UHGV virus genome: UHGV-0211472
Reading direction: 5' to 3' (one strand)
Origin: a virus
Length of the DNA stretch: 64,000 nucleotides
Positions 24,631 to 27,731 of the stretch are shown here, piece by piece (the stretch's first letter is position 1; the number at the start of each line of letters is the position of its first letter). The position numbers and the translations under genes are program-made. The notes beneath the pieces are model-generated. The model ran no database searches, had not been told where the DNA came from, and saw only the letters and a program-made list of their open reading frames with translations.

Positions 24631-24812
24631 TTACGCTCTCCAATTTCTTCGTAATGACACTCAGTAGTTAAGCAGTCTTTACAGATTGCTGTATAAACCC
24701 TGACGTTAGTAAATCGTTTGTTCTTCCCTTTGGTTGGAGAGTCTTTGGCAAGCTCTCTGATAACCTTGTTACTTAAATGAAGGTTTGTTCCTTCACATCT
24801 AGAGCACTTCAT
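24627..24812 (-). CDS. Small zinc-ribbon protein
   Basis: CxxC ... CxxC spacing (CSRC ... CKDC). Confidence 0.4.
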   Translation of the reverse strand: MKCSRCEGTNLHLSNKVIRELAKDSPTKGKNKRFTNVRVYTAICKDCLTTECHYEEIGERK

Positions 24813-25128
24813 GGTTCATATCTTTATGAATCCTGTAAACAGCTGTCGCCATACAAGCAACAGCCTCATTGTGTGGGAGGTGCATCCCTGTAGAACCATC
24901 CCAATCTTTGAACTCATTGTCAAAGACTCCAGTAGGTTCTGGATACAGAGCTTGCAGCTCAACCAAATCATTAGCAACTTGTTGCCATTTATCATCAGAC
25001 CAGATAGGGTCATCCAACCAGTAATACAAATAGGAATGGATGATCAATTGCCTTCTGTGCCGATTAATTATTTCAGCGGGACTTATCTCACTTCCGTTTG
25101 AAGTCCTAAATGTATTACTGTCAATCAT
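24799..25128 (-). CDS. Hypothetical protein
   Basis: 109 aa ORF. Confidence 0.4.
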   Translation of the reverse strand: MIDSNTFRTSNGSEISPAEIINRHRRQLIIHSYLYYWLDDPIWSDDKWQQVANDLVELQALYPEPTGVFDNEFKDWDGSTGMHLPHNEAVACMATAVYRIHKDMNHEVL

Positions 25129-25818: not shown

Positions 25819-26028
25819 TTAATATTCTTTTACATAATAAACCACTAAGGTTCCCATCTCTGACAATGTTGATTTATGTAAGCTTACTTTACTATAAATC
25901 TTTGGAGACATCTTAAGAGCCTTCTTAAAACGGCGAGCGTCTTTACGAGTAGCAAAGTGCTCTGTAACAGGTATAGCCGGGTCTTGGTAGAGGTAGTATA
26001 CCACCGTCCAATATTTTTTCATAATCAA
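25819..26028 (-). CDS. Small protein (paralogue of 27504..27731)
   Basis: MKKYW... start and AR.FKK...S.HK pattern shared with 27504..27731. Confidence 0.35.
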   Translation of the reverse strand: MIMKKYWTVVYYLYQDPAIPVTEHFATRKDARRFKKALKMSPKIYSKVSLHKSTLSEMGTLVVYYVKEY

Positions 26029-26297
26029 ACACCTAGGGCAGTAGTTAAGAATGCTTTCAGGTTTGCTTCGGTTTGCATACCAGAGAGGCTGTAATGTGCA
26101 CCACTGTTACGGTCAGGTACAACGAAAGCAGGGATGCTACGAACTCCGTACTTAACAGCTTGTTCACGACCATCACCTTCAAGGATGTTAATCTCTTCCA
26201 CTTCTACATCGAACTCCTTAACAACCTTCTCAAAGATAGGAGCCATTGCTTTACATGGAGCACACTGATCACTATAAAACTTAATCACTTTAGACAT
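26025..26297 (-). CDS. Thioredoxin-like protein
   Basis: 90 aa with CAPC redox motif in Trx-like context (FYSDQCAPCKAM). Confidence 0.6.
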   Translation of the reverse strand: MSKVIKFYSDQCAPCKAMAPIFEKVVKEFDVEVEEINILEGDGREQAVKYGVRSIPAFVVPDRNSGAHYSLSGMQTEANLKAFLTTALGV

Positions 26298-26303
26298 GTA
26301 AAC

Positions 26304-26483
26304 CCTTATGCAGTCAGGAGGTGAAGCAGGAATGGGATAACAACAGCTACAATAACCATGATGGTTGATGCTGTTTGAAGCTCACCTTTCTTGTCAGGGG
26401 TTTCTTCAATAAGCTTACCAGAAGCCCAATAAACACCACCACCAATAAAGATAGCCCAAATACCCCATACGATTGCTGATAAC
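26304..26483 (-). CDS. Small two-helix membrane protein
   Basis: 59 aa ORF (MLSAIVWGIWAIFIGGGVYW...) with AAGGA upstream; below the track's 60 aa cutoff; competes with track ORF 26347..26646. Confidence 0.3.
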
Positions 26484-26545
26484 ATATATCTATATCCTTA
26501 TAAATAAGTTCGCCCCACCTCGGGTTAGGAGACAGGGCGTAGGTT

Positions 26546-27109
26546 TTAGTAAGACACATCACCACTTGAATGGGACATGTTGCTCTTGACAAAGTAACAA
26601 TACTTGCCAAGACCTTCATTAATTTCTTGAAGCATACTCTGATCAACTGGATAAGTAGCTAAATCGCCATCAAACTCATCCATCTTCTCAATAATACACA
26701 TCAAGGTCATGCACATATCAGAGAGCATACCATCCATGTCTAGATCAGCATTACCCTCTGAGAACCAAGCATGAGAGAGGTAGTTAGCTGCTGTAGCATC
26801 CACTTTAACACAGTGGTAGCGCATACGTTCAGCAATACGATCTCCTACTTGTCGTGCGTAATCTTCCAGCTCGTCAAACATACCATGAACACCCTGAAAC
26901 CCTGCACCAGAGACGTTCCAGTGGTAGTTCTTAGCTTTGATATGCAAGAGTTCCATGTTAGCTTGTAAGCAGCTCAGGATGTGTTCTAGGCTGTTTCCGC
27001 TAATCATGCCTTGCATCGTTTCAAGGCGAGAGATTGAAAGCTCAGACCGGTCTAACACACTATAGCTGTCACGACCAATCTCAGGTAAATCAAAAACATT
27101 CTTATGCAT
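26546..27109 (-). CDS. Dps/ferritin-like protein
   Basis: Dps-type motifs YHWNVSGAGFQGVHGMFDE and VGDRIAERM; start set to ATG (MHKNVF) with GGAGA upstream. Confidence 0.5.
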   Translation of the reverse strand: MHKNVFDLPEIGRDSYSVLDRSELSISRLETMQGMISGNSLEHILSCLQANMELLHIKAKNYHWNVSGAGFQGVHGMFDELEDYARQVGDRIAERMRYHCVKVDATAANYLSHAWFSEGNADLDMDGMLSDMCMTLMCIIEKMDEFDGDLATYPVDQSMLQEINEGLGKYCYFVKSNMSHSSGDVSY

Positions 27110-27431
27110 TTGGCTTTTCTCCATCAAGTTCAACTGAATTAGCAACGTTACGTTCCAGATTGTCAATTACCTGCTGGGTAATTACGATGCAGTTCTGTGG
27201 ATCTACTGACTTAGAACGCCCCATTTCAGGGTCATACACCTTAACACGCTTAGCAGTTGAACCTGTAACCTGAAGAACCTTCAACAGATATCCCTGATTA
27301 CCAATAGACCAAGCAACAACATCACGATTCTTGATAAAGCGACCAAGCATATCACGATGATAAAACTGTTGCATCACCTTGGATTTTGTAATCTCTTCAG
27401 TGGGCGGGGCCACTTTACTCAAATCTAACAT
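27102..27431 (-). CDS. Hypothetical protein
   Basis: 109 aa ORF. Confidence 0.4.
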   Translation of the reverse strand: MLDLSKVAPPTEEITKSKVMQQFYHRDMLGRFIKNRDVVAWSIGNQGYLLKVLQVTGSTAKRVKVYDPEMGRSKSVDPQNCIVITQQVIDNLERNVANSVELDGEKPNA

Positions 27432-27503
27432 AACTCTCTCCTGTAAAATACAAATTCTTATTGTACTCTATATACATTTGAGAGTTACCATATCTACTAC
27501 CAA

Positions 27504-27731
27504 TTAGTAGTGTACTTTTCCACTGAGATAAACACGACCAGAGGAATATTCTCTGGCCTTATGGATGCTAACGCTCTTAGTTAAGTCCCCATGAAACATA
27601 GACTTTTTAAAATCTCGAGCCCGTTGACGAGTAGGTAATGAGGTCATAGTCGTACAACCAGATGACCACTTAATCTTCACTAACCAGAACTTTTTCATAA
27701 TGATATCACACACCTTTAGACGCAACCACAC
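27504..27731 (-). CDS. Small protein (paralogue of 25819..26028)
   Basis: MKKFW... start; see 25819..26028. Confidence 0.35.
   Translation of the reverse strand: MWLRLKVCDIIMKKFWLVKIKWSSGCTTMTSLPTRQRARDFKKSMFHGDLTKSVSIHKAREYSSGRVYLSGKVHY

What the first reader, a model, noticed from the sequence alone, without database searches (positions are those of the whole stretch)
26546..27109. Dps/ferritin-like protein encoded by a phage
The ORF carries the two Dps-family signature regions (HWNVSGAGFQGVHGMFDE and VGDRIAERM) in a ~187 aa protein. Dps homologues are unusual in lytic phage genomes. Possible roles are iron or oxidative-stress buffering during infection or DNA compaction.
Basis: partly seen in the sequence, partly recalled or inferred. 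Interest (0 to 1): 0.45.

Follow-up and report, generated by a model that had tools for sequence, protein, structure and literature searches.

The report
Known Dps mini-ferritin of phiEco32-like phages
The ORF is a genuine Dps-type mini-ferritin with an intact iron-oxidising site, but it is the already annotated, core "gp67" gene of phiEco32-like (Kuravirus) phages, so the finding is correct and largely ordinary.

Summary
Observation confirmed. A 187-aa ORF lies on the minus strand at 26546-27109, with both quoted motifs. Single-sequence searches, a phage-only profile and a predicted structure all place it in the Dps family. The ferroxidase ligands H63, H75, D79, D90 and E94, plus W64, match E. 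coli Dps H51/H63/D67/D78/E82/W52 and are invariant in the close homologues aligned. dN/dS against phiEco32 is 0.02.

It is not new. The window is a Kuravirus (phiEco32-like podophage). The protein is 98.9% identical to phiEco32 gp67, which RefSeq annotates as "member of the Dps family". Papers on phages SU10 (2014) and Privateer (2021) already name it as a Dps-domain core gene. No functional test turned up in the searchable literature.

What this check adds:
- The protein is strongly acidic (pI 4.7, net -15) and has no Lys/Arg-rich tail, so the usual label "DNA-binding protein" is unsupported. Many records call it "integrase", which the Dps evidence contradicts.
- It is the second gene of a translationally coupled pair with gp68, directly behind the conserved middle-promoter motif.
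- In related phage groups it sits among thioredoxin, dCTP deaminase, ThyX and anaerobic RNR genes.

Most likely role: a dodecameric iron/peroxide detoxifier made during phage DNA replication. Interest is low.

The parts
26546..27109 (-). Dps-family mini-ferritin CDS (187 aa plus stop), orthologue of phiEco32 gp67 / SU10 CDS67
   Evidence: ORF and translation. Pfam PF00210 31.1 bits. PHROG 3636 E = 2.6e-55. PDB Dps hits. AF2 model with Foldseek matches to Dps structures, TM-score by target 0.8-0.9. 98.9% identity to phiEco32 phi32_67, annotated 'member of the Dps family'.
26828..26923 (-). Codons for the ferroxidase-centre segment, residues 63-94: H63, W64, H75, D79, D90, E94
   Evidence: All six are invariant in 16 close homologues (A1). 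H63, W64, H75, D90 and E94 are invariant in the 15-sequence set (A3) that adds other phage lineages and E. coli Dps, where they align with E. coli H51/W52/H63/D78/E82. D79 aligns with E. coli D67 but is not invariant in A3. The spacing of 12/4/15/4 is read directly from the sequence.
27119..27122 (-). GGAG ribosome-binding site, 9 nt upstream of the Dps ATG, inside the end of the gp68 ORF
   Evidence: Sequence read.
27102..27431 (-). gp68-family small protein (109 aa, phrog_10984, unknown function). Its stop overlaps the Dps start by 8 nt.
   Evidence: ORF. PHROG 10984 E = 4.6e-64, the same family as the genes placed directly upstream of Dps in Privateer, GAP52, BUCT695 and LAh_9. Same phage distribution as Dps. 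The AF2 model has low confidence (pLDDT 60) and shows a small beta-barrel with no significant PDB match.
27469..27479 (-). AAATGTATATA, a match to the published phiEco32 middle/late (gp36 sigma) promoter motif tAATGTATAtA, 37 nt upstream of the gp68 ATG
   Evidence: Sequence. Pattern hit at 27471-27478. The intergenic block is conserved in phiEco32, ECBP2 and Bas86 (A6). The motif, and a promoter upstream of CDS68 opening the middle genes, are described in PMC4281155.
26511..26539 (-). 11-bp G+C-rich hairpin starting 7 nt after the Dps stop, followed by a U-rich tract interrupted by A. Candidate weak terminator or mRNA-stabilising element.
   Evidence: Terminator-like scan. Fold of -15.5 kcal/mol, z only -1.6. 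The stem is identical in phiEco32, ECBP2 and Bas86, while the loop differs in ECBP2 (A5). Function not shown.
26025..26297 (-). Thioredoxin (90 aa), a context gene recurrently linked to gp68 and Dps in this phage clade
   Evidence: Pfam PF00085 E = 4.2e-13. The order thioredoxin-gp68-Dps is seen in Privateer and GAP52, and thioredoxin-gp68 in 7-11.
26306..26485 (-). 59-aa hydrophobic protein (phrog_9296, unknown function) between Dps and thioredoxin; context only
   Evidence: ORF. PHROG 9296 E = 2.4e-33.

Best explanation
The gene encodes a Dps-type mini-ferritin. By analogy with solved Dps proteins, twelve subunits should form a hollow shell. Each twofold interface should carry ferroxidase centres built from H63, H75 and D79 of one subunit and D90 and E94 of the other. 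These centres oxidise Fe2+, preferentially with H2O2, and the Fe3+ is stored inside the shell. This removes both reagents of the Fenton reaction. The phage makes the protein from its first middle promoter, as the second cistron of a translationally coupled gp68-Dps pair, when it starts DNA replication and nucleotide synthesis. The likely benefit is protection of replicating phage DNA and redox-sensitive nucleotide-metabolism enzymes. Host Dps is scarce in growing cells, and the phage redirects host transcription away from sigma-70 promoters. Direct DNA binding is unlikely.

Shown here: family membership, an intact catalytic site, purifying selection, operon position and synteny.
Shown by others: the protein is expressed (mass spectrometry).
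Inferred: dodecamer formation, ferroxidase activity and the physiological benefit.
For: Family and fold:
- Pfam Ferritin scores above its gathering cut-off.
- The phage-only profile matches 50 PDB sequences at E <= 1e-5. All carry Dps, Dps-like, NAP or mini-ferritin type names except one entry labelled 'putative bacterioferritin'. The best is Dlp-2 at 6e-15 over profile positions 39-171.
- The AF2 model (pLDDT 79, pTM 0.72) has helices A, B, short BC, C and D.
- Foldseek's top hits are MsDps2, Dlp-2, MrgA and S. aureus Dps, with probability 1.0 and TM-score by target 0.8-0.9.

Catalytic site:
- H63, W64, H75, D79, D90 and E94 are invariant in the close homologues.
- They align with E. coli Dps H51, W52, H63, D67, D78 and E82.

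Selection and expression:
- dN/dS is 0.019.
- SU10 CDS67 was detected by MS with 6 peptides and 35.8% coverage.
- The middle-promoter motif lies upstream of gp68, and gp68 and Dps overlap by 8 nt.

Context:
- The gene is embedded in the nucleotide-metabolism module (ThyX, thioredoxin, dCTP deaminase) here. It sits next to NrdD in Privateer-, GAP52-, BUCT695- and LAh-type phages.

Against DNA binding:
- pI is 4.72 and net charge -15. The N-terminal extension is net -2 and the C-tail net -1.
- E. coli K5/K8/K10 have no counterpart.

The low Dps level in exponential E. coli and the H2O2 preference of Dps are established knowledge, not tested here. Inhibition of sigma-70 transcription by phiEco32 gp79 is taken from the abstract of PMC12276001.
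Against: No biochemical or genetic data exist for any phage member of this clade in the searchable literature. Oligomeric state could not be modelled. The single-sequence Pfam match covers only residues 55-108. Kuraviruses lack the oxygen-sensitive NrdD that neighbours Dps in related phages, so the 'protect nucleotide enzymes' part is not general. The conserved 40-residue N-terminal extension, the five cysteines and the partner gp68 are not explained by a plain mini-ferritin role. Detection of the Privateer orthologue in CsCl-purified virions hints at something beyond a cytoplasmic detoxifier.
Confidence: 0.7

Rival explanations
1. DNA-binding or nucleoid-compacting protein, as most database records label it. 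It would coat or condense phage or host DNA like E. coli Dps in stationary phase.
For: It is annotated 'DNA binding protein' in phiEco32, in PHROG 3636 and in many other records. E. coli Dps does bind DNA (established knowledge). The Privateer orthologue co-purifies with DNA-filled virions.
Against: pI is 4.72 and net charge -15 per subunit. The N-terminal extension and the C-tail are both net negative. The Lys5/8/10 tail of E. coli Dps is not matched. All 16 close homologues have pI 4.6-5.0. Acidic, tail-less Dps proteins such as Listeria innocua Dps do not bind DNA (established knowledge). The label appears to be inherited from the family name.
Confidence: 0.08
2. Part of a phage redox/iron module with gp68 and thioredoxin. 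It would supply or buffer iron and remove O2/H2O2 specifically for phage nucleotide-synthesis enzymes: the NrdD/NrdG glycyl-radical and Fe-S system in relatives, and flavin-dependent ThyX, which can leak H2O2. This refines the main explanation rather than replacing it.
For: The order thioredoxin-gp68-Dps-NrdD is conserved in Privateer and GAP52. The order gp68-Dps-NrdD holds in BUCT695, where no thioredoxin is annotated. NrdD/NrdG lie near gp68-Dps in LAh_9, and ThyX-Dps is the order in 7-11. In Kuravirus the order is gp68-Dps-gp66-thioredoxin-ThyX. The gp68 and Dps start/stop codons overlap in five lineages. gp68 and Dps have the same phage distribution.
Against: Co-distribution may reflect only shared ancestry of one phage clade. 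In 7-11 and PKM.Lu.22.1 the gp68 gene is separated from Dps. Kuraviruses keep Dps under strong selection without any RNR. gp68 has no recognisable domain and only a low-confidence model.
Confidence: 0.15
3. Virion-associated protein. Dps is packaged in, or bound to, the prolate capsid, either as an encapsulin-like ferritin cargo or as a protectant of packaged DNA.
For: The Privateer orthologue was among about ten phage proteins detected by MS in CsCl-purified particles. UniProt names some viral proteins with a Dps-like fold 'Prohead protease'. Kuravirus versions carry conserved terminal extensions of unknown role.
Against: The SU10 MS sample was only PEG-precipitated, and many non-structural middle proteins were also seen in it. 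The SU10 cryo-EM and gel-band MS study lists gp20-24 as internal proteins and does not mention Dps. The gene is in the middle replication class, not the late structural class. A 9-nm dodecamer could not pass the tail channel. An iron-loaded Dps could simply co-band with phage in CsCl (inference).
Confidence: 0.05
4. Decaying or functionless captured host gene.
For: None beyond the absence of experimental data.
Against: dN/dS is 0.019. All catalytic residues are invariant in the close homologues. The gene is core in all C3-morphotype relatives. It is only 18% identical to host Dps, and the nearest relatives come from phages and from unnamed metagenome contigs, some 60-90 kb long. The protein has been detected by MS.
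Confidence: 0.02

Closest known systems
phiEco32 gp67 (phi32_67, YP_001671812.1) and SU10 CDS67
   Same: Orthologues with 98.9% and 96.8% amino-acid identity, the same length, and the same position between gp68 and gp66/thioredoxin. Already annotated 'member of the Dps family' or 'contains a DPS domain'.
   Different: Nothing of substance. The window phage is about 90% identical in nucleotides to these genomes over the 6-kb stretch compared.
Listeria innocua Dps / Bacillus anthracis Dlp-2 type mini-ferritins (tail-less, non-DNA-binding Dps)
   Same: Same fold and the same inter-subunit ferroxidase ligand set and spacing. Acidic, with no basic tail. Dlp-2 is the best PDB profile hit at 6e-15 and has TM-score by target 0.88.
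   Different: Only 20-27% identity. The phage protein has an extra 40-residue acidic N-terminal extension with a predicted helix, a 10-residue C-tail, 5 Cys and 14 Met.
Escherichia coli Dps (host protein, b0812)
   Same: The ferroxidase residues H51, W52, H63, D67, D78 and E82 align one-to-one. K48 aligns with K60.
   Different: 18% identity overall, with BLASTP aligning only 41 residues. There is no Lys-rich N-terminal DNA-binding tail. This is not a recent capture from the host.
Mycobacterium smegmatis Dps2 (2z90, 4m35)
   Same: Best single-sequence PDB hit at 2.6e-9 over residues 51-176, and the top Foldseek hit.
   Different: 24% identity.
Other phage-encoded Dps-like proteins (Grimontviridae such as Privateer, 7-11 and GAP52; Lahexavirus; Lactobacillus phages LP65 and Semele; 'Gratiaviridae' gut phages)
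   Same: Same family. The Grimontviridae and Lahexavirus versions are 31-45% identical and share the gp68 / nucleotide-metabolism neighbourhood. Other phage lineages also carry Dps.
   Different: Non-Kuravirus versions lack the N- and C-terminal extensions. The Lactobacillus and gut-phage versions are only remote relatives, 16-24% identical in fold alignments.

Membership tests
Dps (DNA protection during starvation) mini-ferritins | Significant profile-level sequence match to the ferritin/Dps family | tested here: met
   PF00210 scores 31.1 bits against a cut-off of 24.5. The phage-only profile A1 matches 50 PDB sequences at E <= 1e-5. All have Dps-type names except one labelled 'putative bacterioferritin', and the best is 6.4e-15. 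The single sequence reaches 2.6e-9. The NCBIfam Dps equivalog models are hit but far below their cut-offs (34.5 against 114 bits), so this is a divergent member.
Dps (DNA protection during starvation) mini-ferritins | Four-helix bundle with a short extra helix in the long B-C loop | tested here: met
   The AF2 model has helices at 41-65, 72-98, 107-112 (short BC), 125-150 and 154-176. Foldseek gives probability 1.0 and TM-score by target 0.8-0.9 to many Dps crystal structures.
Dps (DNA protection during starvation) mini-ferritins | Inter-subunit ferroxidase centre: His, His (+12), Asp (+4) on helices A/B and Asp (+15 from the second His), Glu (+4) on helix B, with Trp after the first His | tested here: met
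   H63, W64, H75, D79, D90 and E94 are present at exactly this spacing. They are invariant in A1 and align with E. coli H51, W52, H63, D67, D78 and E82.
Dps (DNA protection during starvation) mini-ferritins | Assembly into a 12-subunit hollow shell with 23 symmetry | not testable with these tools
   Only monomer prediction was available. Needs SEC-MALS, native MS, cryo-EM or multimer modelling.
Dps (DNA protection during starvation) mini-ferritins | Fe2+ oxidation (H2O2 preferred over O2) and iron-core formation | not testable with these tools
   This is a biochemical assay. No published data were found.
DNA-binding subset of Dps (E. coli Dps type) | Flexible Lys/Arg-rich N- or C-terminal tail, or a basic surface | tested here: not met
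   Residues 1-40 are net -2, residues 176-187 are net -1, and the whole protein is net -15 with pI 4.72. E. coli K5/K8/K10 are unmatched.
Classical 24-mer ferritin / bacterioferritin | Closest relatives are 24-mer ferritins with an intra-subunit di-iron site | tested here: not met
   None of the 50 PDB sequences matched by the phage-only profile at E <= 1e-5 is named as a classical 24-mer ferritin. The one entry labelled 'putative bacterioferritin' (3kwo, 152 aa) is Dps-sized; its oligomeric state was not checked here. The top 50 Foldseek hits are all Dps.
Kuravirus/Gordonclarkvirinae core gene gp67 | High identity and conserved position between gp68 and gp66/thioredoxin, in the middle gene block | tested here: met
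   97-99.5% identity to Kuravirus orthologues and about 82-83.5% to the other Gordonclarkvirinae tested, such as ECBP2 (genus Suseptimavirus). Gene order is identical in phiEco32, ECBP2 and Bas86.
Integrase (label used in many GenBank records for this gene) | Any match to tyrosine or serine recombinase families | tested here: not met
   Pfam, NCBIfam and PHROG searches return only ferritin/Dps families. The label seen is a propagated annotation error.

The most novel reading that the evidence does not exclude
The phage Dps is not only a cytoplasmic detoxifier but is physically associated with the virion. It would be loaded into or onto the prolate HK97-fold capsid as an encapsulin-like ferritin cargo, possibly through the Kuravirus-specific terminal extensions or gp68. 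There it would protect packaged DNA from iron-catalysed oxidative damage or carry iron with the particle. The evidence does not exclude this. The Privateer orthologue is one of about ten phage proteins found in CsCl-purified virions, and some viral Dps-fold proteins are named as prohead-protease proteins in UniProt.
Probability: 0.06. Interest if true: 0.65.

Novelty: already known. Interest (0 to 1): 0.22.

Why it matters
As it stands, the result matters mainly for annotation. The gene should be called a Dps-family ferroxidase or mini-ferritin. "DNA-binding protein" is unsupported, and "integrase" is contradicted by the Dps evidence.

Biologically, this is a strictly conserved, strongly selected Dps placed at the head of the replication-phase operon of a whole clade of prolate podophages. 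That suggests control of iron and peroxide is a real constraint on lytic replication in enterobacteria. phiEco32, SU10 and the BASEL phages Bas86-94 are tractable systems for testing this by gene deletion. It would not change current concepts unless the virion-association or gp68-partner ideas prove true.

Tried and rejected
- Literature: five full-text searches for experimental work on phage Dps found only genome-annotation remarks and the gut-phage survey PMC8008677.
- gp68 partner: Pfam and NCBIfam gave nothing. The AF2 model reached only pLDDT 60, and the best Foldseek hit was E = 0.018 to Tudor/SH3-like barrels. This is too weak to assign a function.
- Defence or anti-defence role: there are no PADLOC matches for Dps or gp68.
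- Dps as guardian of anaerobic RNR: NrdD, NrdG and GrcA queries from relatives find nothing in the window. No RNR is annotated anywhere in phiEco32. The idea is rejected as a general explanation.
- Long Dps-domain fusion proteins: Pfam and PHROG see only the ferritin domain, plus phrog_16075 in one protein. The one genomic context retrieved was not a recognisable capsid module. Dropped.
- Profile A3 against the PDB is partly circular because A3 contains E. coli Dps. The phage-only profile A1 is used as evidence instead.
- The 206-aa TTG-started ORF was rejected in favour of the 187-aa ATG start, which has an RBS, overlaps the upstream stop, and matches orthologue lengths and the SU10 21.2-kDa mass.
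- The hairpin after the stop codon is conserved, but its folding z-score is only -1.6, so it is reported only as a candidate element.
- Plus-strand ORFs across the region (42-65 aa) were dismissed on length alone; no search was run on them.

Full report
**1. The observation**

The ORF exists as described, on the minus strand. The ATG is at 27109, the stop codon at 26548-26546, and it encodes 187 residues. The two quoted motifs are residues 63-80 and 88-96. A GGAG sits 9 nt upstream of the ATG. The ATG overlaps the stop codon of the preceding ORF (27102-27431) in the sequence ATGCATAA, an 8-nt overlap typical of translational coupling. A longer TTG-initiated reading (206 aa) is possible on paper. 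It is not supported by the lengths of annotated orthologues or by the 21.2-kDa protein reported for SU10.

**2. Family assignment**

Sequence evidence:
- Pfam gives PF00210 (Ferritin-like) at 31.1 bits, above the 24.5-bit gathering score, although only over residues 55-108.
- PHROG 3636 matches residues 35-180 at E = 2.6e-55.
- phmmer against PDB sequences finds 60 sequences at E <= 1, nearly all Dps proteins. The best is M. smegmatis Dps2 at 2.6e-9 over residues 51-176.
- A profile built only from close homologues of the phage protein (A1) matches 50 PDB sequences at E <= 1e-5. All carry Dps-type names except one labelled 'putative bacterioferritin'. The best is B. anthracis Dlp-2 at 6.4e-15 over nearly the whole core.
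- A second profile (A3) scores much higher, but it contains E. coli Dps and is therefore partly circular.

Structural evidence:
- The AlphaFold2 model has mean pLDDT 79 and pTM 0.72. It shows the Dps architecture: helices A (41-65) and B (72-98), a short BC helix (107-112), then C (125-150) and D (154-176). A lower-confidence N-terminal helix (18-37) precedes them.
- Foldseek against the PDB returns only Dps structures in the top 50, with probability 1.0 and TM-score by target up to 0.9.

**3. The catalytic site**

Aligned with the host's own Dps, taken from E. coli K-12, the residues pair as follows:

| Phage | H63 | W64 | H75 | D79 | D90 | E94 |
|---|---|---|---|---|---|---|
| E. coli | H51 | W52 | H63 | D67 | D78 | E82 |

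That these are the ferroxidase-centre ligands and the adjacent tryptophan of Dps is established knowledge of the family. All six are invariant in 16 close homologues that go down to 48% identity (A1). H63, W64, H75, D90 and E94 remain invariant when the Grimontviridae, Lahexavirus and more distant representatives are added (A3). Against phiEco32 the gene shows 22 synonymous and 2 non-synonymous differences, giving dN/dS of 0.019. The gene is under strong purifying selection with its active site intact.

**4. It probably does not bind DNA**

The protein has pI 4.72 and a net charge of -15. The 40-residue N-terminal extension is net -2 and the C-terminal tail is net -1. All 16 close homologues have pI 4.6-5.0. 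The Lys5/Lys8/Lys10 tail that E. coli Dps needs for DNA binding (established knowledge) has no counterpart. The common label "DNA-binding protein" therefore appears to be inherited from the family name. The label "integrase" in many GenBank records is contradicted by the evidence here, because only ferritin/Dps families are matched.

**5. Whose gene it is**

The window is a phiEco32-like podophage of genus Kuravirus, subfamily Gordonclarkvirinae. The 6-kb stretch around the gene is about 90-91% identical in nucleotides to dozens of Kuravirus genomes. The protein is 98.9% identical to phiEco32 phi32_67 and 99.5% identical to the Bas92 and YF01 orthologues.

The gene is already described:
- The phiEco32 RefSeq record annotates phi32_67 as "DNA binding protein; member of the Dps family".
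- The SU10 paper lists CDS67 as a DPS-domain protein, one of the few middle genes shared by all five C3-morphotype phages then known. It detected the protein by MS (PMC4281155).
- The Privateer paper reports the Dps-family homologue in CsCl-purified virions and notes that homologues occur in Kuravirus (PMC7881722).
- Dps genes in other phages (Lactobacillus phages, "Gratiaviridae" and 36 further gut phage genomes) are discussed in PMC8008677. They also appear in the BFVD fold search.

The finding is therefore correct but already known as an annotation. No functional experiment was found.

**6. Distribution and origin**

tblastn with this query finds 137 of 50,697 phage records. These are Kuravirus and its relatives on Escherichia and Shigella, the Grimontviridae (Salmonella 7-11, Proteus Privateer, Cronobacter GAP52, Aeromonas BUCT695), the Aeromonas Lahexavirus group, and a few weak hits in Streptomyces and Synechococcus phages.

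In a search of 1.84 billion representative proteins, only 13 clusters reach E <= 1e-10, while 618 reach 1e-3. Among the ten top clusters looked up, the only named protein is from a Salmonella phage. The rest are unnamed metagenome proteins, some on contigs of 60-90 kb. Identity to the host Dps is 18%. This is an old, divergent lineage of Dps whose identified members are all phage-encoded. It is not a recent host capture.

**7. Genomic setting**

*Promoter.* Upstream of gp68 lies a 72-nt intergenic region that is highly conserved in phiEco32, ECBP2 and Bas86 (A6). It contains AAATGTATATA at 27479-27469. This matches the published phiEco32 gp36-sigma promoter motif tAATGTATAtA. The SU10 paper places a promoter upstream of CDS68 and defines CDS25-68 as the middle genes. 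So gp68 and Dps are the first two genes of the middle (replication and nucleotide metabolism) class.

*Hairpin.* Seven nucleotides after the Dps stop there is an 11-bp hairpin (26539-26511). Its stem is conserved, while its loop differs in ECBP2. Its folding z-score is modest at -1.6, so I list it only as a candidate terminator or stabiliser.

*gp68.* The upstream partner gp68 (phrog_10984) is found directly upstream of Dps, with overlapping stop and start codons, in Kuravirus, Privateer, GAP52, BUCT695 and LAh_9. In 7-11 it sits next to thioredoxin instead. Its phage distribution mirrors that of Dps. It has no Pfam or NCBIfam match, and only a low-confidence SH3/Tudor-like model without a significant structural match.

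*Neighbours.* The neighbourhood recurrently includes thioredoxin, dCTP deaminase, ThyX and, outside Kuravirus, the anaerobic ribonucleotide reductase NrdD/NrdG. Kuraviruses have no RNR. None is found in the window by tblastn, and none is annotated in phiEco32.

**8. Mechanism**

The best-supported reading is a dodecameric mini-ferritin that consumes Fe2+ and H2O2 at inter-subunit ferroxidase centres and stores Fe3+. It would be made at the onset of phage DNA replication.

- Shown here: family membership, catalytic residues, selection, operon position and synteny.
- Shown by others: expression.
- Inferred: the dodecamer, the enzymatic activity and the benefit.

The rationale for the benefit rests on established knowledge, not on tests made here. 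Exponential-phase E. coli contains little Dps. phiEco32 redirects host RNA polymerase away from sigma-70 promoters through gp79 (abstract of PMC12276001). A replicating phage genome is a large target for Fenton damage.

Rivals are ranked as follows:
1. A more specific redox/iron module with gp68 and thioredoxin. This is possible but untested.
2. DNA binding or compaction. This is disfavoured by charge.
3. Virion association. The Privateer CsCl data support it. Against it, the SU10 MS sample was only PEG-precipitated, the SU10 cryo-EM study does not list Dps, and an iron-loaded shell might simply co-band with phage.
4. A decaying gene. This is excluded by selection.

**9. Unexplained details**

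The Kuravirus-type proteins carry a conserved acidic N-terminal extension of about 40 residues, with the motifs MHNNxFDLP and SxxRLExM. R28 is invariant. They also carry a tail of about 10 residues that the Grimontviridae and Lahexavirus homologues lack. They are rich in Cys (5) and Met (14). None of this is accounted for by the plain mini-ferritin model.

**10. Verdict**

It is a divergent but complete member of the Dps family, and the orthologue of a gene already annotated as such in phiEco32-like phages. Novelty: already known. Interest is low (0.22). It would rise only if the virion-association or gp68-partner ideas were borne out experimentally.

Noticed in passing
window 26546-27109 (-) and orthologues in GenBank records such as IME267, VTCCBPA_211 and vB_EcoP_DE5: Many Kuravirus genome records label this Dps gene 'integrase', and one calls it 'ferric iron binding protein'. 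No recombinase family matches the protein, so 'integrase' is a propagated annotation error.
   Followed up: yes
window 27102-27431 (-): The gp68 family (phrog_10984, 109 aa) is conserved across the same phage clade as Dps. Its stop codon usually overlaps the Dps start. H25-R26-D27, W41, G44 and the N91/E93/N95-V96 positions are invariant (A2). Function is unknown, and only a low-confidence small beta-barrel model was obtained.
   Followed up: partly
BFVD hits A0A6J7XDU5, A0A6J7WPK9 and A0A6J7WIS1; proteins P0135, P0143 and P0149; locus L010 6001-7005: Some uncultured phages encode long proteins (about 290-780 aa) with one or two Dps-like domains, and UniProt names several of them 'Prohead protease'. 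Pfam and PHROG recognise only the ferritin part. The one genomic context examined was not obviously a capsid module.
   Followed up: partly
window 24799-25128 (-): This 109-aa ORF is the orthologue of phi32_62, annotated 'DNA ligase', but it is far too short for a ligase. By eye it resembles only the N-terminal Ia domain of NAD-dependent ligases. This was not tested.
   Followed up: no
window 26511-26539 (-) and 27536-27558 (-): Two hairpins bracket the gp68-Dps pair. The downstream one has a conserved stem and a variable loop across the four Gordonclarkvirinae phages aligned, which suggests a discrete, possibly more abundant, bicistronic transcript.
   Followed up: partly
whole window 1-64000: ARAGORN finds no tRNA gene in the window, whereas phiEco32 carries a tRNA-Arg at 66354-66427. 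That part of the genome probably lies outside the 64-kb window.
   Followed up: no
loci L002-L006 (Privateer, 7-11, GAP52, LAh_9, BUCT695): In the non-Kuravirus relatives, Dps lies directly next to anaerobic ribonucleotide reductase genes (NrdD, NrdG, a GrcA-like gene, an ATP-cone protein). Kuraviruses have lost or never had these genes but keep Dps.
   Followed up: yes
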